Shown: piece after piece, positions 6,951 to 56,769 of the stretch | How the letters are laid out: each line of letters begins with the position of its first letter | How positions within the stretch are numbered: position 1 is the first letter of the stretch | Origin: Deltaproteobacteria bacterium UBA2409 | Lineage (GTDB): Bacteria > Bdellovibrionota_C > UBA2361 > DDRT01 | Assembly: GCA_002343185.1 (NCBI GenBank) | Contig: DDRT01000001.1 | Span: 400,215 to 464,214 of the forward strand | Reading direction: 5' to 3' | Length of the DNA stretch: 64,000 nucleotides | Notes under the pieces: model-generated | Databases searched by the model: none | Told to the model about the DNA's origin: nothing | The model's input: the letters and a program-made list of their open reading frames with translations, nothing else | Translations under genes and position numbers: made by a program

Positions 6951-7063
6951 GTCTGGTCAGTCTTTCTTGTCCCCCGTAGCTTCAGCGGTGGGGGAAGACT
7001 GACCTTAGCCTTAAGGACTGGCTAAAGCCAGTCCAGACATAGATTAAAACCTGACCAGGCAGG
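6951..7063. repeat. Family-2 palindromic intergenic element (MITE/REP-like) with terminal inverted repeats GTCTGGTCAG … CTGACCAGGC.
   Basis: It contains the hairpins GGTCAGTCTT…AAGACTGACC and GGACTGGCTAAAGCCAGTCC plus the shared core CTTCAGCG. Related copies are at 51648-51739 and 35773-35858. It lies between convergent genes. Confidence 0.6.
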
Positions 7064-9830: not shown

Positions 9831-11836
9831 AGCTTATTAAACTTGAACTTAAAAATTTCAGACAGCACAAAAATACAATACTAACTCTAAAAGATGGAGT
9901 TACAGGAATTCTTGGCCAAAATGGCTCAGGAAAGTCCTCATTAGTTGAGGCTATTTCGTTTTCACTCTACGGATCTAAATCAATCAGAGGAACGCTTGAT
10001 GAGCTTAAATCAAGAGACGAGCCAGAAGGTGTACTTAATGCAGCCCTTACTTTTGAGATCGATTCTACAGTTTATAGAGTTGAGAGAAGTCTTTCAGATG
10101 CCAAGTTTTTTGTTGGAGGAAAATTAGAAGTTAAAGGCTCAAGAGATGTAACTTCTAAAGTAGAGCATATCATAGGAATGAACTATGATGAGTTTGTTTC
10201 AACCTTTTATACAGAACAAAAAGGTTTAGAGTTCTTAAGTAGAAAAAAAGGTGGAGCAGAAAGAGAAAGATTTATAATGCGCCTTCTTGGCTATGATAAG
10301 GTAGAAAAAATTCAGGAAAAACTAAGAGACCAAAAACGTAATCTCAAATCAATGATCTCTTCACTAGAATTTGTTGACTCCTCTGAAGAAGACTTAAAGA
10401 GTGAGCTCAAAAATGAAGAGGAGATCTTAGAAGTACTTAAAAAACAGGAGAAAGGGCTTTCTATTAAGCTAAATGATGTCACTAAAGAGCAAGAGGAAGA
10501 GAAAAAAGCTCTTGAGAGAATTAGTAGTGGTAGAGAGGAGTTTTTAAAGCTTGATAAAGAGCGAAAAAGGCTTGAAGGTGTTTTAGATGAGCAAAAAAGG
10601 GCTCTTAGTAACTCAAAAATTGAAAACTTAAGAGCCTCAGAAGAGATAACTCAAGAACTTAATCAAGTCTCGAAGTTACTGGGAATAGGCGAAAAGGAAC
10701 TTTTAGATCTTGTTAAGAGAGTTTCAACAAATAAAGCTCAGCTTGAGTTAAAAAAGAATGAGAGGGACTCTAAAAGAAAAGCTCTGTTCGAAAGAAAAAA
10801 ATCAATTCTTTCAATTTCTAAGATAGAAGAGAGGTGTCCAACCTGTGGACAGAGCTTTGAAAATCTAGCAGATGCAATTTTGCACCTTGAGCAGGAAGAG
10901 AAAGTTATCGAGCAGATTATAATTGATGATTCTATAGTTAAAGAAGCCGAAAGCCTTCACAAACAAAAAAAGAAAGAGCTAGATACACTTAGATTGAAGG
11001 AAGCAACTCTTAAAACAGAGCTTCAATCGGCTCAAGAGTCAGAGAGGCTAAAAGAGATTAAAGAGAAAGCCGAACTTAGGATTAAAGAAACTAAGGGTTT
11101 TATAATTGAAATTGAAGGGAACCTTAAAAAATTAACATACTCTGAAGAAAAGTATCTCTCACAAAGAACAAGGTTAGAAGTTGTAACCTCGATCCTAACC
11201 AATTTAAGAATGGAACGATTAAAAGTTGAAGGAGACATTAAGGAGAGTCTTGGAAAAATCAATAAAATTGAAGAGATCTTAAAAAGACTTGTAGAGCAGG
11301 TTCAGATAAGAAAGTCTGGCCGAGAGGAGATGGCGCTTCTTGAGTCTGGAGATACAGTACTTTCTGAGTTTAGAAGCTACTTAACTTCAAGTATTAAACC
11401 TAGACTTTGTGAGCTTACATCTGAGTTTCTTTATGAATTAACCGATGCTCGTTATAGAGAGGCAATATTCTCAGAGGACTTTACCCCACAGATAGTCGAT
11501 GATGGAGAGGTTCTAACTGTAATGAGTGGTGGGGAGGAAGATATTCTTCATCTAAGTGTAAGGCTCGCACTATCGCAGCTTCTTGCAGAAAGAGCCGGAA
11601 GAGAGTTTTCATTATTGATTTTAGATGAGGTATTTGGCTCGCTTGATGAATTAAGAAGAAGTAATTTATTAGTTCTTCTTTCGGGACTTACAAACAGGTT
11701 TGAGCAGATATTAGTTATTTCTCACTTTGAAGATGTAAAAGATGCAGTAGATCACGTTGTTTTAATTCAAGTCGATGAAAAAACTGGTTCTAGTTTGGTT
11801 AGCTCAGCAGAGCTTGGAGTGGTGGTAAATATTTAA
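9827..11836 (+). CDS. sbcC: SbcC/Rad50-family ATPase, short 669-aa form.
   Basis: N-terminal Walker A GQNGSGKSS, central coiled coil with a CPTCGQ zinc hook, and a C-terminal signature/Walker B (LSGGEEDILHLSVRLAL…LLILDEVFGSLD). The start overlaps the sbcD stop by 4 nt. Confidence 0.75.
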   Translation: MKLIKLELKNFRQHKNTILTLKDGVTGILGQNGSGKSSLVEAISFSLYGSKSIRGTLDELKSRDEPEGVLNAALTFEIDSTVYRVERSLSDAKFFVGGKLEVKGSRDVTSKVEHIIGMNYDEFVSTFYTEQKGLEFLSRKKGGAERERFIMRLLGYDKVEKIQEKLRDQKRNLKSMISSLEFVDSSEEDLKSELKNEEEILEVLKKQEKGLSIKLNDVTKEQEEEKKALERISSGREEFLKLDKERKRLEGVLDEQKRALSNSKIENLRASEEITQELNQVSKLLGIGEKELLDLVKRVSTNKAQLELKKNERDSKRKALFERKKSILSISKIEERCPTCGQSFENLADAILHLEQEEKVIEQIIIDDSIVKEAESLHKQKKKELDTLRLKEATLKTELQSAQESERLKEIKEKAELRIKETKGFIIEIEGNLKKLTYSEEKYLSQRTRLEVVTSILTNLRMERLKVEGDIKESLGKINKIEEILKRLVEQVQIRKSGREEMALLESGDTVLSEFRSYLTSSIKPRLCELTSEFLYELTDARYREAIFSEDFTPQIVDDGEVLTVMSGGEEDILHLSVRLALSQLLAERAGREFSLLILDEVFGSLDELRRSNLLVLLSGLTNRFEQILVISHFEDVKDAVDHVVLIQVDEKTGSSLVSSAELGVVVNI

Positions 11837-18451: not shown

Positions 18452-19612
18452 ATGAGCTGGGAGGATGGAATAAGTTTTGGCCTTTCTGAGGAAGTCATCG
18501 CTGTTAGAGAAACGGCTAGAAAGTTTGCCCTAGATGAAGTCCTACCACTTGCCGGGAAAATAGATCAGGAGCACTGGTTTCCTAGTGAGATAGTAAAAAA
18601 ACTTGGTAATTTAGGTTTCATGGGTGCCTGTATACCCAGTAAGTATAATGGTTCCGAGCTTTCGCAGGTAGCATATTGCTTAATAATTGAGGAGCTTGCA
18701 GCAGCTTGCGCATCTACTTCTATTATTGTGAGTGCACATCACTCACTTTGTAGCATCCCAATTTTAGATTATGGAACTGAAGATCAAAAAGAGCGATTTC
18801 TGAAACCGCTAGCATCTGGGGAGAAATTAGGGTGTTTTGCTCTTTCTGAACCAGGCTCAGGAAGTGATGCCGCCAGTATGACCTGTAAGGCAGAAAAGAA
18901 AGGGGATAGATTTATCATAAATGGAACAAAGAATTGGATAACTAATGGACCTCAAGCAAATACAGCTGTTCTCTTTGCAACAATAGATACAACAGCCGGC
19001 CATAAAGGAGTTACTGCCTTTGTTCATGATCTCAATATGCCAGGAATTTCAAGAGGAAAGTCTGAAGATAAGCTTGGTATCAGAGGCTCAGGAACTTGCT
19101 CATTAACGTACGACAACGTTGAGTTAAGAGCAGAGAATGTTTTAGGTGAGGTTGGTCGCGGGTTTAAAGTTGCAATGACCACTCTTAATGGAGGAAGAAC
19201 AGGAGTAGCAGCTCAAGCTGTAGGGATTGCTAGGGCTGCCCTAAGAGATGCCTTACAGTATTCAAAAGAAAGAAAAGCATTTGGAAGGGTTATTAACGAG
19301 TTTCAATCTATACAAAATTATTTGGCAGAGATGGTGAACCAGGTTGATGCAGCAAGATATTTAACAATTAGTGCAGCAGCAAAAAAAGATGCTGGCCTTG
19401 AATATGCTAGAGAAGCTGCACAGGCAAAACTTTTTGCATCCGAAGCAGCGATGTTTTGCGCGAATAAAGGAATTCAGATTCATGGAGGATATGGATACGT
19501 TACTGAGTATCCAGCTGAAAGGCATCTTAGAGATGCAAAGATCACAGAGATTTATGAAGGGACAAGTGAGATTCAAAAGTTTGTAATAGCATCAAATTTG
19601 GTGAAGGAATGA
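18452..19612 (+). CDS. Acyl-CoA dehydrogenase (short/branched-chain type).
   Basis: ACAD motifs [14 protein letters not shown] and a C-terminal [14 protein letters not shown]. Length is 386 aa. Confidence 0.85.
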
Positions 19613-21246
19613 GAAGATATTCTGATTGGTTTCAAAATAGATATAAGGCTCAAAAAGAAAGAAAGTCTAAGTTTGAGTCGATAAGCTTTAGAGAACAGCC
19701 TCCGATCGTGACTAATGAGCACCTAAACGGATTTTCTTATGATGAAAAGCTAGGACTTCCTGGGGAATTTCCTTATACACGTGGGATTCAACCAACCATG
19801 TATCGAGGAAAAATCTGGACAATGCGTCAATTTGCTGGGTTTGGAGGACCAGAAGATACAAATAAAAGATTTAAGTATTTACTTTCACATGGACAAACAG
19901 GACTTTCAACAGCTTTCGATATGCCTTGTCTCATGGGCTATGACCCAGATCATCCGATGAGTAAAGGTGAAGTTGGAAGAGAGGGGGTAAGTGTAGCCTC
20001 AATAGAAGATATGGATAGATTATTTGAGGGGATACCTCTTGATCAGGTTACGACTTCTATGACTATTAACTGCACTGCCACTGTTACACTTGCTTTTTAC
20101 TTTGCTATAGCAAAAAGAAGATCAATATCATTTGATAAAATTGGCGGCACAATTCAAAACGATATGTTTAAGGAGTTTATCGCTCAAAAAGAGTGGATCT
20201 CTCCACCGGCTCCATCAGTGAAACTTGTTTGTGATGTTATAGAATATTGCGCTGAGCTTGCTCCAAAGTTTAACCCTGTAAGTATCTCCGGGTATCACAT
20301 ACGAGAAGCAGGAGCGACAGCAGTTCAAGAGCTTGCATTTACCCTTGCTGATGGACTTGGATATGTTGAGCACTGCATTGGTCGTGGAATGGATGTTGAT
20401 AGTTTTGCACCACAGCTCTCATTCTTTTTTGATGTTCATAATGATTTCTTTGAAGAGATCGCTAAATTTCGAGCTGCAAGAAGGCTTTGGGCTCGAATGA
20501 TGAAAGAGAGATACAATGCCAAAAAACCAAAATCACTCATGCTTAGAACTCATGCACAAACTGCTGGTGTTAGCTTAACAGCCCAGCAACCGGTTAATAA
20601 CGTAGCCAGAGTTACAATGCAGGCTCTTGCAGCTGTTCTTGGAGGAGTTCAAAGTCTTCATACAAACTCCATGGATGAGACTCTATCTCTTCCAACAGAA
20701 GAAGCTGTAAAAGTAGCACTTAGAACTCAGCAGATAATAGCAGAGGAGAGTGGCGTTACTAACACAATAGATCCTCTTGGGGGTTCCTATTACATTGAAA
20801 AGCTTACTGATGAGATTGAAGCAGAAGCTTATTCTTATATCAAAAAAATTGATGAAATGGGTGGTATGCTAAAAGCAGTAGAGCTCGGGTATCCTCAAAA
20901 AGAGATCGCTGAATCATCCTATCAATTTCAGCTAAAAGTTGACTCAAAAGAAGAGGTTATGGTTGGGGTAAATAAGTATCAGGATGAGGAAGAGACACCG
21001 ATTCCGCTTCATGCAATTGATCCTGATGTTGAAAGGCTTCAAATTGAACGGACTAAAGCCCTTAAAGCTTCAAGAAATAAAGAGCTTTGGGAAAAGAGTT
21101 TTAAGGCTATCAAGCAGGCCTGTAAGGAAAATAGAAATGTTATGCCAAGTCTTGTTGATGGCGTAGAGCATGGAGTTACTTTGGGTGAGGTTAGTGACAT
21201 TTACCGAGAAGTTTTCGGTGTTTATCGGGATCCAGGGCTGGTATAG
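19609..21246 (+). CDS. Methylmalonyl-CoA mutase family, catalytic (N-terminal, TIM-barrel) subunit of a split enzyme.
   Basis: MCM-family substrate-barrel motifs: [32 protein letters not shown] and [13 protein letters not shown]. It ends before the B12-binding domain, which is encoded separately at 23830. Confidence 0.85.
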
Positions 21247-21291
21247 CAGTCTAGCTATCTTAAGAATTTAATTTCGTTAATATATACGGCT

Positions 21292-22398
21292 GTGATTGAT
21301 ACTGAAGAAACCCTATTTCGAATTGGCTTAGACGTAGCAAGGCAGAGGGTATTTACTACCTGGTACGATTCACCGGCTGTATTAATGGAGAATTTTCTAG
21401 CGCTGACCCATTTTTCTAAGTTCGGCGGTATGAATGGAAAAGGCATTCCATTCGATAGAGCCTGTCTTGATTCTGCTCCAAAGTACACAGACTGTAGGGA
21501 AATTTTAGGAGCGATTAATGAAGATCCATTAAACTTTGCATTCACCCCTGAAGAATCAATAAAGGCCATTAGAGATTGGTTTGAAACGATAGGCTCAAGA
21601 ACTGATATGAGCGTATCTGATGTTGCTAGAATTAGGTATGAGGCGAAGGCTATTCTTAATCACATAGATATCGTTGCTGTCTCTGAGGTGGATCTATATA
21701 GACCAGCTGTTAATAGAGTCTATCAGATGTTTAGCTATGAGCTTGATAGGCGATCTGAACCCTTTAAAAGCTTGCTAGAAAATCGTACTACGCCAGCAGA
21801 GTTTTTAGCCTATTTTGAATCATTTCCTAAGAGTCAGGATCCTTGGCAGCTTGATGATTTAGATATAATTGTGAGACATGTTCTAATTCGAGATAGTCAT
21901 TGTCGTACTTCAAATCGATCTAGAGGAAGACATGAGCGTGAATTTTCACAGACTCCTGTTAGAACTATTGTTCAATTTTTAAGGGACAATCCAGAGCTTG
22001 CTCCAAACTCTAATAGCTACTTAATTGATATAGGATCAGGTTGCGGAGTATCAACAGCAGTTTTTTCGCTTCTTACAGGATGTAAAGCCAAGGGGATTGA
22101 GATCGATCCTAGTTTACATAAAGTGGCAACTCGAATCTCAAAGTTTTTACCGATTGAGTTTTTAAATATAGATGCTCTTGACGCAGATTTTCAAGGCGCA
22201 ACGCATGTGTACTTTGCTTCTTCGCTTATATACTCGGCTACTCAGAAGTTGTTTAGACGCATAAGAGAAGCTAATATCGACGATGTTTCGCTACTTGTAT
22301 ACTGGGATATAAACACAGCACTTAGGGCCGATAAATCTTCCTCTAGAGAGATTCATCAGTACTCTTTGAATGATGTAGTCGAGCGGTTAAGAAAGTAG
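21292..22398 (+). CDS. Hypothetical protein with a C-terminal class-I SAM-dependent methyltransferase fold (368 aa).
   Basis: Motif I LIDIGSGCGVSTAVF, then an acidic post-I residue (KGIEID) and a motif-II-like ATHVYFASS. The layout loosely resembles DOT1-type methyltransferases. The N-terminal ~220 aa are unassigned. Confidence 0.45.
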   Translation: MIDTEETLFRIGLDVARQRVFTTWYDSPAVLMENFLALTHFSKFGGMNGKGIPFDRACLDSAPKYTDCREILGAINEDPLNFAFTPEESIKAIRDWFETIGSRTDMSVSDVARIRYEAKAILNHIDIVAVSEVDLYRPAVNRVYQMFSYELDRRSEPFKSLLENRTTPAEFLAYFESFPKSQDPWQLDDLDIIVRHVLIRDSHCRTSNRSRGRHEREFSQTPVRTIVQFLRDNPELAPNSNSYLIDIGSGCGVSTAVFSLLTGCKAKGIEIDPSLHKVATRISKFLPIEFLNIDALDADFQGATHVYFASSLIYSATQKLFRRIREANIDDVSLLVYWDINTALRADKSSSREIHQYSLNDVVERLRK

Positions 22399-22402
22399 CA
22401 GC

Positions 22403-23743
22403 CTAAAACCTAGCTCTAGTTCCTGTATCGGTAGTATTAGTTTTATGAATTGGAATTTGATGAACATGTATCCCTCTTGCCCTTAACTCACGAACCCAAG
22501 GATATTTAGTTAGCTTTTTTGGGAGTGCTGAGTATCTGTAAAATACAACCTGATTACTTGGAAAGTTAATATCTTCAGGAAATCTCACCCCAGAGATAAT
22601 AATTTTTGAGCCCGCTCTTAATTGAGATAACTTTTCTAATCTTGATTCTTTTGTGTCCCTTCCAGTAATCACAACTGGAAAATCATGAAAAATGTCGTTG
22701 GCTAATGAATCTAAAACGGCTTGTATTCTTTTAAGGTCTGTTTTTACATTTTTTGAGTAAACAATATGGATAGCATCAGGTCTTGAAATTTGATTCTCAA
22801 TTATAAGCCTTTTTAGAGTTAATTCTTTGGGGCTAAAATCACCTAAGATTTCATTGGTTTTTTGATGAGCCTCGTAGCTTATTACATTTTTAAGACCTTC
22901 ATCGCTTTTATGTTCTTCTAACCAGTTATTATCAAATGAAAAGAAATAATCTAGCTCTGGAAGAAGTGATTTTGCGGTTCGAATACAGAATGATCTTTGA
23001 TCGAAATATAAGGCCTTTCTAAAATCTCTTGGATCTAAGAGAGCTTCTAGTTTGTTATCAATGATGTATTTTATGAAGCCTCTTACATCCTCTTTCCCAA
23101 GAAACTCTTGAAGTTTATGAGATTCCATAACAAAGCTAGTTCTTTCACGAAGAGTTTTTAGTGACTTATCATCATGAGAGTCGATAATTTCCAGGGCTTT
23201 ATGTAGGCAATTTGCAAATGTAAATCCTAGTGCAGAGACACTTCTTTTGAATCTTGCTTCTCTTACATGCTCAGGAAGTTTGGCTTCAAAATCCCATGTC
23301 TCAATAGCACTATTTCCAGTTTGATAGAGCCATCTTGCCCAAGCATGTATAAGCCTTGTTGGATCAAAATCGGGTAATTTATTGTCTCGCTTGGCCCTGA
23401 GATACTCAATCAACTGATCTCTAAGATCATCGCTTGGCTCTAATTCAAATTTTTTTGGGACTACACTTCTTTTATCAATTCTGGTTAAGGCTTCTAAATC
23501 GCTCCACTTCCCTGGAATAATAGCCTTTATAACTGCCTCAAGTTCTCTAGGCTTTTGCTTTAAATGATCCTTTAGCCTCTCTATAACTTCATCCAAGATA
23601 GTCTCGGGCGAATCTTTAGGGAAAAGTGGCCTAAGAGCGCCGATCGCTCCCTTAGTGAGTTCTGTTCTCTCGTAAACAAACGGCTCGCCACGAACAAGTG
23701 ATACCCCATGGGTTGCTTTTCCTGTGACAACAGCAGTTTCCAT
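22403..23743 (-). CDS. Hypothetical protein (446 aa), convergent with the methyltransferase-fold gene.
   Basis: Long clean ORF ending 4 nt from the stop of the previous gene. No P-loop or other recognisable motif. Confidence 0.45.
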   Translation of the reverse strand: METAVVTGKATHGVSLVRGEPFVYERTELTKGAIGALRPLFPKDSPETILDEVIERLKDHLKQKPRELEAVIKAIIPGKWSDLEALTRIDKRSVVPKKFELEPSDDLRDQLIEYLRAKRDNKLPDFDPTRLIHAWARWLYQTGNSAIETWDFEAKLPEHVREARFKRSVSALGFTFANCLHKALEIIDSHDDKSLKTLRERTSFVMESHKLQEFLGKEDVRGFIKYIIDNKLEALLDPRDFRKALYFDQRSFCIRTAKSLLPELDYFFSFDNNWLEEHKSDEGLKNVISYEAHQKTNEILGDFSPKELTLKRLIIENQISRPDAIHIVYSKNVKTDLKRIQAVLDSLANDIFHDFPVVITGRDTKESRLEKLSQLRAGSKIIISGVRFPEDINFPSNQVVFYRYSALPKKLTKYPWVRELRARGIHVHQIPIHKTNTTDTGTRARF

Positions 23744-23829
23744 TAGAGGCCTAAAATTACTTCAATTTTGAGTGCTACTCTACTCCCCCCTTGATAACTT
23801 TTTAACTTAAGGCTTCAATAGGGTCTAAG

Positions 23830-24231
23830 ATGGAGCGCCCCCTTCGTATAATGATAGCTAAGCCTGGCCTTGATGGGCATGATAGGGGCGCAAAGGTTAT
23901 TGCTAGAGCGCTAAGAGATGCAGGAATGGAGGTTATCTATACAGGGCTCCATCAAACAGCAGATACGATCGTTCAAAGCGCAATTCAGGAAGATGTGGAT
24001 GCTATAGGTGTTAGTATTCTCTCTGGGGCTCATATGACCCAGTTTCCTGAGATTTTAAGCAGACTAAAAGAGCAAGGTGCTGAAGATATTCCAGTTTTTG
24101 GTGGCGGAATAATACCTAAAGAAGATATTGATAAGTTAAAATCCCTTGGTGTTAAAGAGATATTTATCCCAGGCACCTCCACTCAGGCAGTGATTGATTG
24201 GATTAAGTCCAACGTGCGTGCTAATCCTTAA
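23830..24231 (+). CDS. Methylmalonyl-CoA mutase family, B12-binding (C-terminal domain) subunit, 133 aa.
   Basis: Canonical cobalamin-binding DxHxxG motif ([11 protein letters not shown]) and a Rossmann-like B12 domain (GVSILSGAH…, FGGGIIP). Confidence 0.85.
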
Positions 24232-24258: not shown

Positions 24259-25917
24259 GTGGATAACTTAATAAAATTATCGGCACCAGCCGAGTATCAT
24301 CTATCTGTGTATGGTCCCGATGGTAGAATCTTTCGGAATCCATATCCTGCAGATGATTGTATATTAGAGAAAGACCACCAATATTATGCTGAGGCACGTA
24401 GAGCCGCATCATTTTATAAAGCTGCTCAGAGTAAGGCCATTGAAGGAATCAAGAAGATTCGAGGAACAATTTTTGGGGCAATTCCAAGTAGTGCAACAAT
24501 CGATAAAGTTGAGTCAAAAGAGTTTTTAGAAAACGTTATTAAAGAGGCAATTGAAAAAAATAAGGACAGGATCATAAATCTATTATCAGGAATAGACGAG
24601 ATTCAAGCGGATGATCTTACTTCCTTTGCAGCGCGAGTACTTCAGCTTGCCTTTTATGATATTAATCCTCAGCGAAAATTAAGGGTAAGAGTTGGGCGAG
24701 AACTAAGAGAGGAGCTCTTAGCGCACAGAGAAAATTATAAAGACAACGTTGGAGGGCTCAGCACTTTTTTAGGAGCGTTCCTGTCAAGGCTAGGTTTTAG
24801 AGCTAGGTGCTTTATATCGACTTCTTCTCACCATGATCTAAAGCAGGTATTTGAATCGATGCCTGGAGTTGAATTTGTTCAATCAGGAAGGGTAGTTGAT
24901 CCAAAAAATGTAACTCTTGACCGAGATGAACCAGGAAATATCGTCTGTAAAACAGAGTCGATAAATTTCTTAAATTTTTTCAGTGTGGAGGATCTAAGAC
25001 AGATCCCAGAACCTTTAAATGGCTCAACGCTTTCTGTCGATATAGTTGTTTCTAGAGATGAAGGAATTCCGAGTATTGATGATTGCTCGCGCGAGTTCTT
25101 AGAGGAGCTCTCGAAAGATATACCAGTCTATTTTCTTTCATCAGTCAACAAAGCTAGAACAGCAGAGGAGTTAAATAATTTTTTTGATAATATTAATGGG
25201 ATTCACTCAAGATTTTCCTGGGCATTTTCTTCTTTTATTCATTGGGATACTTTTGGAGCAGGTGTTCCACGGTTTAGAGAGAGGATCACCACTTTCTCTC
25301 TTAATACCGCTGAACTTCTAGATATAGTTAGAAAATTTGATACATGGTTCCCCTCTCTTCCTTGCTCAGTATCTAACAAATCTGAGATCAAAGAGCTTTT
25401 TACACCTCTCTGCGAAGGTGAGCCACATATTCAAAGCTCCGAGTGGATGGTTAATGGTGTCAGAGCCTTAGAGGCTTTATTCGGAAAAGAGGTAAATATC
25501 GTCCTTAGGGGTCACCATATTCATATTGCTAGTTATGCTAGCGCAGACAGATTTACAGAAGAAGAATGTGAACATTTAAGAGATATAAATATGTTCTCAC
25601 GAGCACTTGCTGCTCAGAAGGTTTTCTTTAAAGATGGACTTCCAAAATCTATCGATGAAGTTGGAATAATTGACTTTCCACTTACAGATGATGCGATTCA
25701 TTCATTTACAAGAGCAGCCAGACTCTTTGGTTATGAGGGGGAATTAAGGGAGAAATATTGGGTTAAAACAGATGAAGCTAGGCTAATAGTTTTAATTCCA
25801 ACCATGCCTTTTCTTGTAAGAAGTGGAACTGCTGGAGCAGGGGATAGTATGGACCTAGGTAGAGTTCTAGCAACTCAAGCTCTCCTCGGCGATAGGGTGG
25901 ATGTTAGGTTGATCTAG
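24259..25917 (+). CDS. Hypothetical protein (552 aa) with ribokinase-superfamily-like motifs. Possible sugar/nucleoside kinase related to ADP-dependent kinases.
   Basis: A GG-containing N-proximal motif (DNVGGLSTFLGAFLSRLG) and a C-terminal anion-hole-like GTAGAGDSMDLGRVLA, reminiscent of the GAGD motif of the PfkB/ADP-dependent kinase fold. It has a GTG start 28 nt after the B12 subunit stop. This call is tentative. Confidence 0.3.
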   Translation: MDNLIKLSAPAEYHLSVYGPDGRIFRNPYPADDCILEKDHQYYAEARRAASFYKAAQSKAIEGIKKIRGTIFGAIPSSATIDKVESKEFLENVIKEAIEKNKDRIINLLSGIDEIQADDLTSFAARVLQLAFYDINPQRKLRVRVGRELREELLAHRENYKDNVGGLSTFLGAFLSRLGFRARCFISTSSHHDLKQVFESMPGVEFVQSGRVVDPKNVTLDRDEPGNIVCKTESINFLNFFSVEDLRQIPEPLNGSTLSVDIVVSRDEGIPSIDDCSREFLEELSKDIPVYFLSSVNKARTAEELNNFFDNINGIHSRFSWAFSSFIHWDTFGAGVPRFRERITTFSLNTAELLDIVRKFDTWFPSLPCSVSNKSEIKELFTPLCEGEPHIQSSEWMVNGVRALEALFGKEVNIVLRGHHIHIASYASADRFTEEECEHLRDINMFSRALAAQKVFFKDGLPKSIDEVGIIDFPLTDDAIHSFTRAARLFGYEGELREKYWVKTDEARLIVLIPTMPFLVRSGTAGAGDSMDLGRVLATQALLGDRVDVRLI

Positions 25918-26036: not shown

Positions 26037-26327
26037 GTGGAAAATTTTAATCCATTTAGTATTTTTCTGATCTGGCTTTTTGCAGGTGCAATCGTAGCTT
26101 TAGGCTTAAAGGAGCTACACACTATGCATGGTCAAAGAGCAGGGGTAAGTCAGGTTGAAGTAGACAGCCTTGTTAATAAACTTAAAGGCAATCAAAAGGT
26201 AATAAGACCTCAGTCTGGTGAGAGAGCTTCGTATGTTCCAGAAGAAAAAGTTCAAGAAACAGCCGACGGAGTTAGCAGCAAGGCTAAAGATATTATAAAT
26301 AAGATATTTCCAGGGCAGAAGCAGTGA
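26037..26327 (+). CDS. Small membrane-anchored hypothetical protein (96 aa).
   Basis: N-terminal TM helix (FSIFLIWLFAGAIVALGL). Followed by two lipoprotein genes with overlapping ends. Confidence 0.35.
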   Translation: MENFNPFSIFLIWLFAGAIVALGLKELHTMHGQRAGVSQVEVDSLVNKLKGNQKVIRPQSGERASYVPEEKVQETADGVSSKAKDIINKIFPGQKQ

Positions 26328-26764
26328 GAATTTTAGTCTTAGGGTTAGTAATACTATCAGGGTGTATCCTTGCCCCAGTAATGAAAGGTGTTCAAGACGC
26401 TGGGATCACTAAAAACGACAGAGCAGTAAAATTAGGTGAAAATCTCCGTGAATTTAAAGAAGCCCTTTACTGGGGGCAAACGCTAAGACTAAACAGCTAT
26501 CTACTTGAAGAAGGAAAGGAGTCCTTTACTACTGCCTATAAAGGAGTTGGTCGAACAGAAAGGCTTACCGAAACCAAAGTCGAAGAAACCGAAATTTCAG
26601 AGGATGGTTACTCAGCTAAGGTGCGAATGATGGTTAGATATTATAGGATCCCTCACTATACTGTAGTAGAACGAGTTGATACTCATGATTGGAAATATGA
26701 AGATGGTTGGAAAATCGCCTCAGTTGCAGTTGGTGACGAAGGTAACACTTCTCCTCTTCGTTAG
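26324..26764 (+). CDS. Lipoprotein (146 aa).
   Basis: Lipobox LVILSGC following a short basic N-terminus. The start overlaps the previous stop by 4 nt. Confidence 0.45.
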   Translation: MRILVLGLVILSGCILAPVMKGVQDAGITKNDRAVKLGENLREFKEALYWGQTLRLNSYLLEEGKESFTTAYKGVGRTERLTETKVEETEISEDGYSAKVRMMVRYYRIPHYTVVERVDTHDWKYEDGWKIASVAVGDEGNTSPLR

Positions 26765-27410
26765 TTTTTTAGGCTGCTCCGTAAAGACTGAGCAGAGTGA
26801 GGATGCTCCTGTTTCGTTAAGTGTACTTGAGGAGTTTAGAAATCAAGACACGCTTTCTATAAGAGCCTCTCTTGATTCAAAAGTAGATCCAGCACCTCAG
26901 GTTGCAGTGACACTAAAAACTCTTAACAAGGCAGAGATCGTTGGGGAGTCTCTTTATCCAATCAAGCAGCAAAGTTATCCATATGAGTTTACAATCTCGG
27001 CCTCAGCAAAAGATATGACTGATTATCAGCTTGGTCTTTTTTGGGGGGATGAGGCTGATGAATTTTTTCTTCGAGATGAGACTGTAAAAGAAGAGGAGAA
27101 AAAGGTTGAAGCACCAGAATTAAAGGTTGAAGTGGTGTCAACTAGTCCAAGCCCACTTCAATGTAGGGCTGGAAGCTGCGAAGGAGGGATAGAGATTAGT
27201 GGTCTTCTTAAAGGAGTTGGAAGTAATATAACTCTTTCAGTAGTTCTTATGGACGCAGATGGGGAGGAGGCTACTGAACCTGCAGAGGTAGATTTAGGAG
27301 AGCTTATAGTCGATGGAGAGGCTCCATTTGAACTAGGGATAGATCTTCCGTCTGGCGTTTCAGGCCATGATTTAACCGCAAAAGTTACAGTAGTTGATTT
27401 TACCCCTTAG
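26697..27410 (+). CDS. Acidic lipoprotein (about 235 aa).
   Basis: Lipobox VSFLGCS. The remainder is strongly acidic (many D/E). The true start is uncertain: the track start at 26676 overlaps the upstream gene by 88 nt, and several in-frame starts exist. Confidence 0.4.
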   Translation: MKMVGKSPQLQLVTKVTLLLFVSFLGCSVKTEQSEDAPVSLSVLEEFRNQDTLSIRASLDSKVDPAPQVAVTLKTLNKAEIVGESLYPIKQQSYPYEFTISASAKDMTDYQLGLFWGDEADEFFLRDETVKEEEKKVEAPELKVEVVSTSPSPLQCRAGSCEGGIEISGLLKGVGSNITLSVVLMDADGEEATEPAEVDLGELIVDGEAPFELGIDLPSGVSGHDLTAKVTVVDFTP

Positions 27411-55020: not shown

Positions 55021-56769
55021 TCAAGTGCCAAGCCCATTCATTTTCAATAAATCCCTAACCCTCTTTTTAAGAGGTAAAGATTCTTTAAAAACTCTTATTT
55101 TGCCCCCAGTTTCATTAGATTCAAAAACAGTAATGATAACTTTTCTATGAGATGGCATAACATCTTTAAAAGTCACAAAGCTCTTATTTTTAAATGACTT
55201 TTTTTGGATAGCTAGTGTTCGGATTTTAATCTCAGCATGCAAACCCTTAGCTAAATGGTTCGATCTAACAATCTGAATTCTGCCTGCTCTCTTTAGACTG
55301 CTGAATTTTAATCTTACCTCGAATGGATCGGCATGGATGGTTGGAGTCGGAATAGGAGAATTGGTATATGTTGGTGAATTGGTGGGGGTCGGTGAGCTGG
55401 ATGGTGTTGGGGAGTTGGTGGGTGAAACCGAGGTCGGAGTATTAGTAGGAGTTGACGTAGAAGTTGCTGGAAGATTAGTAGGGGTTGCTGTTCTGGTATG
55501 GGTTGGCGTTCTAGTAGGAGTAGCCGTTGCTGGAAGAATTGTTGGAGTTGGGGTTGCTGTAGCTGGAAGAGTTGTTGGAGTTGGAGTCGCTGTTGGCGTC
55601 CCCTCGCTTACACTTGCAAGACAAGAGCTATAGTTGTTATCCGCTAAAAACGAATTCCATGCATTCAAGCTCGCAGTGCTATATTCTCGGTCATTTCCAG
55701 TTGCTCCTGGAGACATTACGTATTGAGTTGGCTCTGAGTCGTGTCCACCAGTGCTTGCATTATATGCACTTAGAGTGTGAAACATTTCATGTTCGATAAT
55801 ACTAGCATTTCCAGCAATCGTACTGTAGTAGGTTATACTTCCTCCGCTGTTTGAACCAGTTTCTTGAACATGGCATACCATGGACATCGAATTAAATGGT
55901 AACCAAGTCATTAGCGCATAACCGATTGGCCCACTGCTGTAGTTTCCAAGTATAATGTGATTCAGATCTGAGATAATATTATATGTTGAAATATAGGATT
56001 TAAGAGAATTTACATTGGCAGTTATGTCCGTTCCTCCTGTAAAAGGTGAAGTAGTCGGGTTGAATGTTATCGAAAGGACATTAATTGTTGCTCCCAATCT
56101 TGTACGAATTCGCGCATCAACATGATTGATATATTGAAGCAGTAAATTTTCTGAATCTTGTCCCCATCGTTGATGATATTCAGGGGTGGTAAAAAATCTC
56201 ATTTCAATCTCTCTTAGATCGCCCCCATTCATTGTAGAAAAACCAGGATTGATATGAACATGATTATAGTTAGGGAGGCTCTCTGGGGAGTCAGATACAG
56301 GAACGTTCAAGGGGTGAGAAATAACTTTAATTTTGTCGATATGATTTTTTTTACTCAGCTTTTTATTTTCTGCAAACTTGATCGTAATTTGGCATACTCT
56401 ACTTTTGTTGCACCCTTCGTAGCTTGTTGTAATCCTGTATCCTTTCTTGCGCTTCTCAATAGCAATCCCAACGGGATAGTATTTCTTTTCTCTCCCTATT
56501 CTCTTAATAACTAAACCTTGAGCTAGGGCGATGTTTTCAATCGAACGAATCGTCGAGAAACGATTTGCTTCTATTGTTATATTGCCTCTCCCAGAAAATC
56601 TTTTTAATTTTCTATTACGTCCTAGTACTTTCATCAAAAGGGAAGTTGAGTTTGCTGATACAGTGTTTGTCCGCTCAAGTTTGCTTTTTAGGTTGGGGCT
56701 GATTAGTACTATCGGATCAGCATGGGCAACTAGTGAAAACATTAGCAGCACTACAAAGACTTGCCTCAT
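55021..56769 (-). CDS. Secreted zinc metallopeptidase (HExxH) with a Thr/Pro-rich linker and a C-terminal domain.
   Basis: Signal peptide [17 protein letters not shown], zincin motif [10 protein letters not shown], roughly 90-aa linker ([20 protein letters not shown]…), and a C-terminal ~100-aa basic domain. Confidence 0.5.
55340..55615. repeat. Low-complexity tandem-like codon repeats encoding the Thr/Pro linker.
   Basis: Reiterated ACN-CCN codon units. The + strand antisense reads as a spurious Gly/Val ORF. Confidence 0.6.

What the first reader, a model, noticed from the sequence alone, without database searches (positions are those of the whole stretch)
21292..23743. 2.6 kb pair of convergent orphan genes (methyltransferase-fold protein plus 446-aa unknown) inserted between the two halves of a split methylmalonyl-CoA-mutase
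The mutase catalytic subunit ends at 21246 and its B12-binding partner starts at 23830. In split mutases these are normally adjacent, often with the MeaB GTPase. Here they are separated by two genes with their own orientation logic: convergent, with stops 4 nt apart. One (368 aa) has an unassigned N-terminal domain fused to a class-I SAM methyltransferase fold (DIGSGCG motif, DOT1-like organisation). The other (446 aa) has no recognisable motif and no P-loop, so it is not MeaB. The B12 subunit therefore needs its own promoter in the 86-bp divergent spacer at 23744-23829. This looks like an insertion of a two-gene module of unknown function into a conserved operon. It is a good place to look for an uncharacterised system, for example a modification enzyme plus its partner or target.
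Basis: partly seen in the sequence, partly recalled or inferred. Interest (0 to 1): 0.65.

Follow-up and report, generated by a model that had tools for sequence, protein, structure and literature searches.

The report
Orphan genes between split mutase halves
Two real but narrowly distributed genes of unknown function, a methyltransferase and a "half-helicase"-like protein, sit between the two halves of a B12-dependent acyl-CoA mutase in a Bdellovibrio-like bacterium; close relatives have deleted the methyltransferase and kept its neighbour, so the two are not an obligate working pair.

Summary
ORF368 (21292-22398, +) and ORF446 (22403-23743, -) are convergent, with stops 4 nt apart, and lie between a mutase large subunit (19609-21246) and its B12 subunit (23830-24231). 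Both are genuine genes: dN/dS is 0.18 and 0.11, against 0.02 for the mutase. Both are near-orphans, with 3 and 6 relatives in about 5.8 billion proteins.

The closest named relatives (Bdellovibrionales and Oligoflexia MAGs) share the upstream genes and have the mutase halves 32-61 nt apart, so an insertion is supported. The junction is not sacred, though. Among 70 related loci only 27 have adjacent halves, and one relative carries an ArnT-like gene there.

The "two-gene module" reading is not supported. Three sister lineages have lost the methyltransferase by different deletions and kept ORF446. One of these is about 96% nt-identical to a lineage that still carries it. The only distant ORF446 homolog sits alone among housekeeping genes.

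ORF368 is a class I SAM methyltransferase with a helical N-domain, not specifically DOT1-like and without DNA-methyltransferase motifs. ORF446 is a poorly modelled, predicted-helical N-terminal region plus an SF2-helicase lobe-2-like domain, with no ATPase lobe and no P-loop, so it is not MeaB.

Verdict: ordinary lineage-specific accessory genes in a gene-flux hotspot. Interest is low.

The parts
19609..21246 (+). Large (catalytic) subunit of a split B12-dependent acyl-CoA mutase, ICM/HCM-like. It forms the left border of the insert.
   Evidence: PF01642 E 1.2e-219. TIGR00641 749.8 bits against a 303.8 cut-off; the MCM equivalog NF006944 scores 619 bits, below its 876 cut-off. Best solved relative is HcmA 4r3u at 561 bits. 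Orthologs are 93-97% identical in sister lineages, dN/dS 0.02.
21255..21283 (+). Conserved block in the mutase-ORF368 spacer (CTATCTTAAGAATTTAATTTCGTTAATAT). It is a candidate promoter or operator for ORF368, with a TAnAAT-like hexamer 8 nt before the GTG.
   Evidence: The TATCTTAAGAA core and the TA(A/G)(A/T)AT hexamer are conserved in window, L001 and L004. The block also survives in L096, where the methyltransferase ORF itself is deleted. Promoter function is inferred, not shown; the consensus scan did not flag it.
21292..22398 (+). ORF368: a lineage-restricted class I SAM-dependent methyltransferase. Residues 1-84 are unmodelled, about 85-230 form a helical domain, and about 236-368 form the Rossmann-like methyltransferase domain (motif I DIGSGCG = residues 246-252 = 22027-22047).
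   Evidence: Only 3 relatives in 5.8e9 proteins. The ortholog P0008 passes the Pfam Methyltransf_11 cut-off (25.8 against 21.2 bits), but the window protein itself is sub-threshold. AF2 model pLDDT 64.6, pTM 0.64. Foldseek gives 133 PDB methyltransferase-fold matches at E<=1e-3, led by CntL at 6e-6. dN/dS 0.18. No [DNS]PP[YFW] motif.
22403..23743 (-). ORF446: an orphan protein with a roughly 300-aa N-terminal region predicted helical (low confidence) and a C-terminal SF2-helicase lobe-2-like alpha/beta domain. It has no ATPase lobe.
   Evidence: 6 relatives in 5.8e9 proteins and 3 hits among 1.84e9 representatives. No Pfam, NCBIfam, PADLOC or PHROG hit. dN/dS 0.11. No Walker A or DExx. Present between the mutase halves in all six sister lineages examined.
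22448..22831 (-). C-terminal domain of ORF446 (residues about 305-432), a RecA-like lobe resembling domain 2 of SF2 helicases and translocases.
23790..23821 (+). Conserved block CTTGATAACTTTTTAACTTAAGGCTTCAATAG in the 86-nt divergent spacer. It is a candidate own promoter for the B12 subunit (TTGATA, 17 nt, TTCAAT).
   Evidence: Conserved in window, L001 and L004, although in L004 the sequence to its left is a different 950-nt non-coding stretch and a 1398-aa gene. It was not flagged by the strict sigma-70 scan. Function is inferred.
23830..24231 (+). Small B12-binding subunit of the split mutase. It forms the right border of the insert.
   Evidence: PF02310 E 1.6e-26. TIGR00640 164.7 bits against a 57.45 cut-off. 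Orthologs in the sister lineages are 93-98% identical.
24259..25917 (+). ORF552: a third variable orphan of the same hotspot, 27 nt downstream of the B12 subunit. It is possibly a divergent ADP-dependent sugar-kinase-like protein.
   Evidence: No Pfam hit. Weak collinear match to ADP-dependent glucokinase 1ua4 at E 0.0019 and to NF010641 at E 0.046. Absent from L004. 84% and 66% identical in L001 and L096.

Best explanation
The stretch between the two halves of a split, ICM/HCM-type acyl-CoA mutase is a small gene-flux hotspot in one genus-level clade of Bdellovibrionota. It is not an organised two-gene system.

ORF446 was inserted once in the ancestor of this clade and has been kept in every lineage seen. 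It is most likely a non-catalytic nucleic-acid- or protein-binding protein. It is built from a novel N-terminal region (predicted helical) and a degenerate SF2-helicase lobe 2, and it cannot hydrolyse ATP on its own because lobe 1 and its Walker A and B motifs are missing.

ORF368 is an accessory SAM-dependent methyltransferase that acts on a protein or small molecule rather than on DNA. It is transcribed from its own promoter. It is dispensable, because sister lineages have deleted it repeatedly.

Neither gene is a mutase accessory. The insertion cut icmB off from icmA, and icmB is now read from its own conserved promoter block.

What is shown: gene reality, purifying selection, the insertion, the presence/absence pattern and the fold classes. 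What is inferred: binding rather than catalysis for ORF446, a non-DNA substrate for ORF368, and the promoters.
For: Insertion:
- L018 and L031 (Bdellovibrionales and Oligoflexia MAGs) carry HIT, (ech) acd, mutase and B12 with gaps of 32 and 61 nt. The window clade has 2.6 kb there.

Hotspot:
- L009 has an ArnT-like glycosyltransferase between the halves (NCBIfam E 3.5e-31).
- L004 and L095 add a 1398-aa Toprim-like gene.
- ORF552 is present or absent by lineage.

The two genes are uncoupled:
- L095 is 96-97% nt-identical to L004 on both flanks but has 93 nt where L004 has 1210 nt containing the methyltransferase.
- L096-99 lack window positions 21279-22296 and keep the upstream block plus about 100 nt of the methyltransferase 3' end.
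- L093 has a 442-nt non-coding filler plus about 50 nt of the methyltransferase 3' end.
- ORF446 is intact in all of these.
- The distant ORF446 homolog P0009 (hhalign probability 97%, 386 aligned columns) lies next to TrmB-like, HU, asd, truA and nusA-infB genes, with no methyltransferase or mutase.

Selection: dN/dS is 0.18 and 0.11, against 0.02 for the mutase.

Folds.

No catalytic helicase motifs, no P-loop and no DPPY.

No foreign composition and no flanking repeats.

Conserved upstream blocks.
Against: - All carriers of the two genes belong to one narrow clade, so co-occurrence and independence are judged from few lineages, mostly on short metagenome contigs.
- In the three lineages that keep both genes, the tail-to-tail junction is tight (4 to 13 nt, or a 17-nt overlap in L004). 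That could reflect functional or regulatory coupling.
- The ORF446 model is poor overall (mean pLDDT 48). The helicase-lobe assignment rests on a 130-residue region of moderate confidence and has no significant sequence-level support.
- Substrates and binding partners are untested.
- In L004 and L095 ORF446 is translationally coupled to the Toprim-like giant gene, which hints at a partner-dependent role that the window genome lacks.
Confidence: 0.6

Rival explanations
1. The two genes are a functional pair. The methyltransferase modifies ORF446, or a target it shares with ORF446, and the pair acts as a small modification or regulatory module.
For: They are immediate tail-to-tail neighbours in window, L001-3 and L004, with 4-13 nt between the stops or a 17-nt overlap, and this holds across saturated synonymous divergence. 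No lineage was seen with the methyltransferase but without ORF446.
Against: Three independent deletions removed the methyltransferase and left ORF446 intact. The orientation is convergent, so they are separate transcripts. The rate patterns differ: between window and L004 the methyltransferase is 44% identical and ORF446 is 68% identical. P0009 sits alone.
Confidence: 0.12
2. The insert is the eroded remnant of a larger mobile or defence-type island. The fuller form survives in L004 and L095 as a Toprim-like 1398-aa protein translationally coupled to ORF446, plus a methyltransferase. In this reading ORF446 is the lobe-2-like accessory subunit of that DNA-processing machine.
For: The 1398-aa gene overlaps the ORF446 ortholog's start by 8 nt. 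Its residues 299-378 match the phage DNA-primase family phrog_849 at E 1e-5. The methyltransferase domain matches the PADLOC MADS mad2 model at E 1e-5 to 3e-8. All the island genes evolve fast, and gene content varies between near-identical strains.
Against: - No PADLOC hit for ORF446, ORF552 or the 1398-aa protein.
- The mad2 match covers only the generic SAM-binding stretch of about 70 residues, and ORF368 has no DPPY-type DNA-methyltransferase motif.
- No relatives in 2.9 million viral contigs.
- No integrase, tRNA, flanking repeats or GC deviation.
- ORF446 stays under purifying selection in four lineages that lack the giant gene.
- Loss of a protective methyltransferase with retention of the partner is the opposite of restriction-modification logic.
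Confidence: 0.15
3. ORF446 and/or ORF368 are lineage-specific accessory factors of the mutase. Examples would be a MeaB-replacing chaperone, a regulator of icmB expression, or a cofactor-related methyltransferase.
For: ORF446 always sits between the two mutase genes and is divergent from icmB. No MeaB-type P-loop gene exists anywhere in the 64-kb window.
Against: - ORF446 has no P-loop or GTPase motif.
- No mutase-linked family matches.
- The distant homolog P0009 is not near any mutase.
- The nearest relatives' mutase operons lack both genes.
- None of the 17 other loci with genes between the halves has a related gene.
- The methyltransferase is dispensable.
Confidence: 0.05

Closest known systems
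Class I (Rossmann-like) SAM-dependent transferases with a helical N-terminal substrate domain, such as CntL and nicotianamine-synthase-like enzymes, PrmA, Dot1 and small-molecule N-methyltransferases
   Same: ORF368 has motif I DIGSGCG, an acidic residue after beta-2 (GIEID), NIDAL and HVYFASS strands, and the predicted alpha/beta methyltransferase fold with a helical domain in front. There are 133 PDB fold matches at E<=1e-3, led by CntL. The ortholog passes Pfam Methyltransf_11.
   Different: No subfamily is singled out. The window protein is below every Pfam and NCBIfam cut-off. The N-terminal 230 residues match nothing. The family has 3 members in 5.8e9 proteins. DOT1 is not preferred (15.9 against 23 bits; Dot1L is fold rank 49).
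C-terminal RecA-like lobe (domain 2) of SF2 helicases and translocases (DEAD-box, Snf2, Hef/FANCM, RIG-I), and degenerate 'pseudo-helicase' modules such as the XPF helicase-like domain
   Different: There is no lobe 1, Walker A or DExx. The second motif VI arginine is not conserved. Pfam Helicase_C is not significant. The domain is fused to a novel ~300-aa N-terminal region (predicted helical). Activity as a helicase is therefore not expected.
Split acyl-CoA mutase operons (IcmA/IcmB, HcmA/HcmB) with or without a MeaB-type G-protein chaperone
   Same: The flanking genes are a bona fide large subunit and B12 subunit. They lie downstream of acyl-CoA dehydrogenase and enoyl-CoA hydratase genes, as in the relatives.
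   Different: The halves are separated by 2.6 kb of unrelated, oppositely oriented genes, and no MeaB is present in the window. Separation itself is common: in 17 of the 44 related loci that have a B12 subunit nearby, 0.6-2.1 kb lies between the halves.
Methylation-associated defence and restriction-modification systems (MADS mad2, methyltransferase plus helicase-type partner)
   Same: A methyltransferase lies next to a helicase-fold protein, and there is a weak PADLOC mad2 hit.
   Different: The hit covers only the SAM-binding core. There are no DNA-methyltransferase motifs, no nuclease and no ATPase. The methyltransferase is lost while its neighbour is retained. None of the other system components is present.

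Membership tests
Class I SAM-dependent methyltransferase superfamily (ORF368) | Motif I (D/E)xGxGxG, plus an acidic residue at the end of beta-2 that binds the SAM ribose | tested here: met
   DIGSGCG at residues 246-252 and GIEID at 268-272, with all motif-defining residues invariant (only Cys251 is replaced, by Ser, in P0008) across the three family members.
Class I SAM-dependent methyltransferase superfamily (ORF368) | Rossmann-like alpha/beta methyltransferase fold | tested here: met
   AF2 model (pLDDT 64.6; residues 236-368 score 64-81). Foldseek finds 133 PDB methyltransferase-fold chains at E<=1e-3. The model rests on only 3 sequences.
Class I SAM-dependent methyltransferase superfamily (ORF368) | Score above a curated family threshold | tested here: inconclusive
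   For the window protein the best scores are PCMT 16.5 against 20.3 bits and DOT1 15.9 against 23 bits. The ortholog P0008 passes PF08241 at 25.8 against 21.2 bits.
DOT1 histone-lysine methyltransferase family (ORF368) | PF08123 gathering score, and a specific fold preference for Dot1 | tested here: not met
   15.9 bits against a 23-bit cut-off, covering only residues 239-284. Dot1L is rank 49 in the fold search, behind many unrelated methyltransferases.
DNA methyltransferase of R-M or MADS type (ORF368) | Catalytic (D/N/S)PP(Y/F/W) motif, and companion defence genes | tested here: not met
   The motif is absent. The PADLOC mad2 match is limited to about 70 residues of the SAM-binding core. 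The neighbours have no PADLOC hits.
MeaB/ArgK G-protein chaperone (ORF446) | P-loop GxxGxGKS(T) and SIMIBI GTPase domain | tested here: not met
   ORF446 has no Walker A, and the only Walker A in the whole window is at 9914. No Pfam or NCBIfam hit.
SF2 helicase (ORF446) | RecA-like lobe 2 (Helicase_C) | tested here: inconclusive
SF2 helicase (ORF446) | Lobe 1 with motif I (Walker A) and motif II (DExx) | tested here: not met
   Neither motif is present. The N-terminal 300 residues are predicted all-helical.
Split B12-dependent acyl-CoA mutase (flanking genes) | Large-subunit and B12-subunit family models above their cut-offs | tested here: met
   TIGR00641 749.8 against 303.8 bits; TIGR00640 164.7 against 57.45 bits.
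Methylmalonyl-CoA mutase proper (flanking genes) | MCM equivalog model, and the substrate-specifying residues | tested here: not met
   NF006944 scores 619.5 bits against an 876 cut-off. The sequence reads TMRQFAGF and IAQKEW, the F/Q pair I recall for IcmA rather than the Y/R pair of MCM (own knowledge, not tested). The best solved relative is HcmA.

The most novel reading that the evidence does not exclude
ORF446 founds a new family of 'half-helicases', consisting of an SF2 lobe 2 plus a novel helical domain with conserved N- and C-terminal peptides. These would work in trans with a separate enzyme, such as the Toprim-containing 1398-aa protein that is translationally coupled to it in L004 and L095. 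Together they would form a previously undescribed DNA- or RNA-processing or conflict module, with the variable methyltransferase as an optional add-on.
Probability: 0.1. Interest if true: 0.5.

Novelty: new variant of a known kind. Interest (0 to 1): 0.2.

Why it matters
Mostly as a corrective. A pair of adjacent orphans splitting an operon looks like a hidden system. Comparison with strains about 96% nt-identical shows that the pair is separable and that the junction is simply permissive for gene gain and loss.

The modest positive yield is threefold:
- A tiny new protein family: a lobe-2-only, helicase-like protein with about 6 cluster representatives in the 5.8 billion-cluster protein database.
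- A fast-evolving, dispensable methyltransferase with an unassigned N-terminal domain.
- A natural example of an icmA-icmB operon that was split, with the distal gene apparently acquiring its own conserved promoter block.

None of this bears on a long-standing open question.

Tried and rejected
- Pfam, NCBIfam, PADLOC and PHROGs on ORF446 gave nothing.
- A full HMMER profile search of 1.84e9 representatives found only its own cluster, P0009 and one spurious repeat protein, P0010.
- A second word-indexed search with a profile that included P0009 found no new members.
- The metagenome-contig scan only re-found the P0009 locus.
- Viral-contig scans for ORF446, ORF368 and the 1398-aa protein found nothing.
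- PDB sequence searches for ORF446 (whole protein and C-terminal domain), ORF368 and the 1398-aa protein gave no significant specific hit.
- The afdb50 fold library was unavailable.
- Rfam and tRNA scans of the window were empty.
- The sigma-70 and terminator consensus scan found nothing above shuffles and nothing in the two spacers.
- The repeat search found no direct or inverted repeats bracketing the insert.
- GC content matches the host: 0.396 and 0.370 against 0.395 for the window.
- There is no paralogy among ORF368, ORF446, ORF552 and the 1398-aa protein.
- A literature search for the ICM signature residues found nothing usable, so that point is marked as own knowledge.
- The window genome itself was not among the 80 genome loci returned.
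Full report
**1. Observation**

- The mutase large subunit ends at 21246.
- ORF368 runs 21292-22398 on the + strand, with a GTG start.
- ORF446 runs 22403-23743 on the - strand.
- The two stops are 4 nt apart. An 86-nt divergent spacer precedes the B12-binding subunit at 23830-24231.

The mutase assignments are robust: PF01642 at E 1e-219 and PF02310 at E 2e-26, with TIGR00641 and TIGR00640 above their cut-offs. ORF368 carries DIGSGCG at residues 246-252. ORF446 has no Walker A, no DExx and no family hit.

Both ORFs are real genes. Orthologs exist on independent metagenome contigs. Against the L001 lineage, NG86 dN/dS is 0.18 for ORF368 and 0.11 for ORF446. The mutase gives 0.02 and the B12 subunit 0.04, with dS about 0.7-2.2. 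So both genes are under purifying selection, but at non-synonymous sites they evolve roughly 6 and 12 times faster than the mutase large subunit.

**2. How rare they are**

- ORF446 has 5 cluster representatives, one of which is identical to the window protein, in 5.8 billion proteins. A full HMMER profile search of 1.84 billion representatives adds only one true distant relative, P0009 (555 aa; hhalign probability 97%, E 8e-11, 386 aligned columns). A further search with a profile that includes P0009 adds nothing.
- ORF368 has 3.
- Neither has relatives in 2.9 million viral contigs.
- Nothing was found in PADLOC or PHROGs, apart from a match of the generic SAM-binding core of ORF368 to the MADS mad2 model.

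**3. Is it an insertion?**

I used the large subunit to collect 80 related loci from species-representative genomes and mapped the neighbouring genes by tblastn. The nearest named relatives are uncultured Bdellovibrionales and Oligoflexia MAGs.
- L018 and L031 share the upstream synteny (HIT, enoyl-CoA hydratase in L031 only, acyl-CoA dehydrogenase, mutase) and have the B12 subunit 32 and 61 nt downstream. This supports an insertion in the window's lineage.
- L009 is the closest by identity (70%). It has a different insert at the same junction, a 555-aa ArnT-like glycosyltransferase (NCBIfam E 3.5e-31).

More widely, there are 70 loci with at least 3 kb of sequence downstream. Of these, 27 have adjacent halves and 17 have 0.6-2.1 kb between them, none with a MeaB-type P-loop. 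The other 26 have no B12 subunit nearby. The premise "normally adjacent, often with MeaB" is therefore only partly right. The insert has host-like GC (0.396 and 0.370 against 0.395). It has no bracketing repeats, and no tRNA or integrase lies nearby.

**4. Are the two genes a module?**

This is the decisive comparison. Six sister lineages (mutase 93-97% identical) could be examined. ORF446 is present and intact between the mutase halves in all of them.

| Lineage | Methyltransferase (identity to ORF368) | ORF446 ortholog | Other features |
|---|---|---|---|
| Window | present | present | ORF552 present |
| L001-3 | present (77-78%) | present | ORF552 present |
| L004 | present (44%) | present | extra 1398-aa gene; ORF552 absent |
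| L095 | absent | present | C-terminal fragment of the 1398-aa gene (98% identical to L004) at the contig end |
| L096-99 | absent | present | ORF552 present |
| L093 | absent | present | contig ends in the B12 gene |

The three losses have different boundaries:
- **L095.** Both flanks are 96-97% nt-identical to L004, yet L095 has 93 nt where L004 has 1210 nt containing the gene.
- **L096-99.** These lack window positions 21279-22296. They retain the conserved upstream block and about 100 nt of the 3' end, now broken by stops.
- **L093.** It has a 442-nt non-coding filler carrying two copies of a small hairpin repeat, plus about 50 nt of the methyltransferase 3' end.

Three deletions with different boundaries mean that the methyltransferase was ancestral and has been lost repeatedly while ORF446 was kept. 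In addition, P0009, the only distant ORF446 homolog, lies beside a TrmB-like regulator, HU, asd, truA and the rimP-nusA-infB operon. No methyltransferase or mutase is nearby. The two window genes are convergent and so cannot be co-transcribed. An obligate enzyme-partner or restriction-modification-like pairing is therefore not supported. An optional interaction cannot be excluded.

**5. What the proteins are**

*ORF368.* The AF2 model built from 3 sequences has pLDDT 64.6 and pTM 0.64. Residues 1-84 are unmodelled, about 85-230 are helical (pLDDT 70-93), and 236-368 form an alpha/beta domain.
- Foldseek finds 133 PDB chains at E<=1e-3, all of them class I SAM-dependent transferases. They are led by CntL (6e-6) and include SibL, an RNA methyltransferase, PrmA and plant N-methyltransferases, with Dot1L only at rank 49.
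- The PDB profile search also puts CntL first, but at E 0.0045.
- Motif I fits the methyltransferase consensus rather than the nicotianamine-synthase one (my reading).
- The ortholog P0008 passes Pfam Methyltransf_11. The window protein is sub-threshold everywhere.
- There is no DPPY-type motif.

I conclude that ORF368 is a SAM-dependent methyltransferase of unknown, probably non-DNA, substrate. It is not specifically DOT1-like.

*ORF446.* The AF2 model is poor (mean pLDDT 48), except for residues about 305-432 (pLDDT 60-83), which form an alpha/beta domain.
- Foldseek's best hits are the Hef helicase (E 9.5e-4), RIG-I, DDX41 domain 2, the Sulfolobus Snf2 C-terminal domain and the eIF4A C-terminal domain.
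- At sequence level this is not significant. Helicase_C reaches E 0.1 in 2 of 6 members, and there is no PDB hit.
- The rest of the protein is predicted helical and matches nothing.
- There is no lobe 1. Of the motif VI-like segment ELRARG, only R421 and G424 are invariant.
- The family also keeps a striking N-terminal peptide (GKATHGVSLVRGEPF) and a C-terminal tail (NTTDTxTRAR) whose D, T, R and R survive even in P0009.

I infer a non-catalytic binding or adaptor protein. This is inference, not demonstration.

**6. Regulation**

A 32-nt block directly upstream of the B12 subunit (23790-23821, TTGATA-N17-TTCAAT) is conserved in window, L001 and L004. In L004 everything to its left is different. 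A second block (21255-21283, with a TAnAAT hexamer 8 nt before the GTG) is conserved upstream of ORF368. It persists even where the ORF has been deleted. The strict consensus scan did not flag either block.

**7. The mutase**

The large subunit reads TMRQFAGF and IAQKEW. From my own knowledge this is the F/Q pair typical of isobutyryl-CoA mutase IcmA rather than the Y/R pair of methylmalonyl-CoA mutase. The MCM equivalog model is below its cut-off. The best solved relative is the 2-hydroxyisobutyryl-CoA mutase HcmA. "Split acyl-CoA mutase, ICM/HCM-like" is the safer name.

**8. Rivals**

- **An optional functional pair (0.12).** Tight tail-to-tail juxtaposition speaks for it. The deletions, the gene orientation and the solitary P0009 speak against it.
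- **A remnant of a larger conflict or mobile island (0.15).** In L004 and L095 a 1398-aa protein has a Toprim-like stretch (phrog_849 at E 1e-5) and overlaps the ORF446 start by 8 nt. All the island genes evolve fast and vary between near-identical strains. Against this, there are no defence, viral or integrase signals, and ORF446 is maintained without the giant gene in four lineages.
- **A mutase accessory (0.05).** Nothing beyond position supports it.

**9. Verdict**

This is an insertion of genuinely uncharacterised, lineage-restricted genes, but it is not a coherent two-gene system. It is best seen as a small gene-flux hotspot holding a dispensable methyltransferase and a retained lobe-2-only, helicase-like orphan.

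Novelty is limited to a new, very small protein family with an unusual domain make-up. Interest is low (0.2). The most novel reading still open is a trans-acting half-helicase that partners a Toprim-containing giant protein; I give it about 10%.

Noticed in passing
window 24259-25917 (+): ORF552 lies 27 nt after the B12 subunit and is another fast-evolving orphan (84% and 66% identity in sister lineages; absent from L004). It has a weak, collinear match to ADP-dependent glucokinase (PDB 1ua4 at E 0.0019; NF010641 at E 0.046) and a C-terminal GAGD motif. It may be a divergent ribokinase-superfamily kinase co-transcribed with icmB.
   Followed up: partly
L004 4321-8517 (-), also L095 1-360: A 1398-aa orphan protein with a Toprim-like stretch (residues 299-378, phrog_849 DNA primase at E 1e-5). 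It is translationally coupled (8-nt overlap) to the ORF446 ortholog. It is absent from the window and has no Pfam, NCBIfam, PADLOC, PDB or viral relatives. A 950-nt non-coding stretch (L004 8518-9465) lies upstream of it.
   Followed up: partly
window 6999-7040; L093 1959-2086; the terminal ~30 nt of L096 at its ORF552 end: A small REP/MITE-like hairpin element (GGACTGG[T/C]TAAA[A/G]CCAGTCCAGACA). There is one intergenic copy in the window, two copies in the filler that replaces the methyltransferase gene in L093, and one next to ORF552 in L096. It may be involved in the rearrangements at this locus.
   Followed up: partly
window 19609-21246 and the whole window: The mutase has F/Q specificity residues ([14 protein letters not shown]), which look ICM-like rather than MCM-like. 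Its best solved relative is HcmA. No MeaB-type P-loop gene exists anywhere in the 64 kb; the only Walker A motif is at 9914, in an SMC/RecN-like ORF.
   Followed up: partly
L009 5326-6993 (+): In the closest Bdellovibrionales MAG an ArnT-like membrane glycosyltransferase (NCBIfam E 3.5e-31) occupies the same junction between the mutase halves. This is an independent, unrelated insertion.
   Followed up: yes
window 22403-23743 (-), protein termini: The ORF446 family keeps an invariant N-terminal peptide (GKATHGVSLVRGEPF) and a C-terminal tail (NTTDTxTRAR). The D, T, R and R of the tail survive even in the 21%-identical homolog P0009. These may be docking peptides of unknown meaning.
   Followed up: no
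window 55476-55593: Two overlapping tandem-repeat arrays (18-nt x 2.9 copies and 33-nt x 2.5 copies) lie inside the 582-aa ORF at 55021-56769 (-).
   Followed up: no
window 26037-27410 (+): Three small overlapping ORFs (96, 146 and 244 aa) with signal-peptide or lipoprotein-like N-termini lie between ORF552 and miaB. For the 96- and 146-aa ORFs, the called genes at the same position have no Pfam hit on record in window-identical contigs (L005/L006) and the ORFs are conserved in sister lineages (72-95% identity).
   Followed up: no
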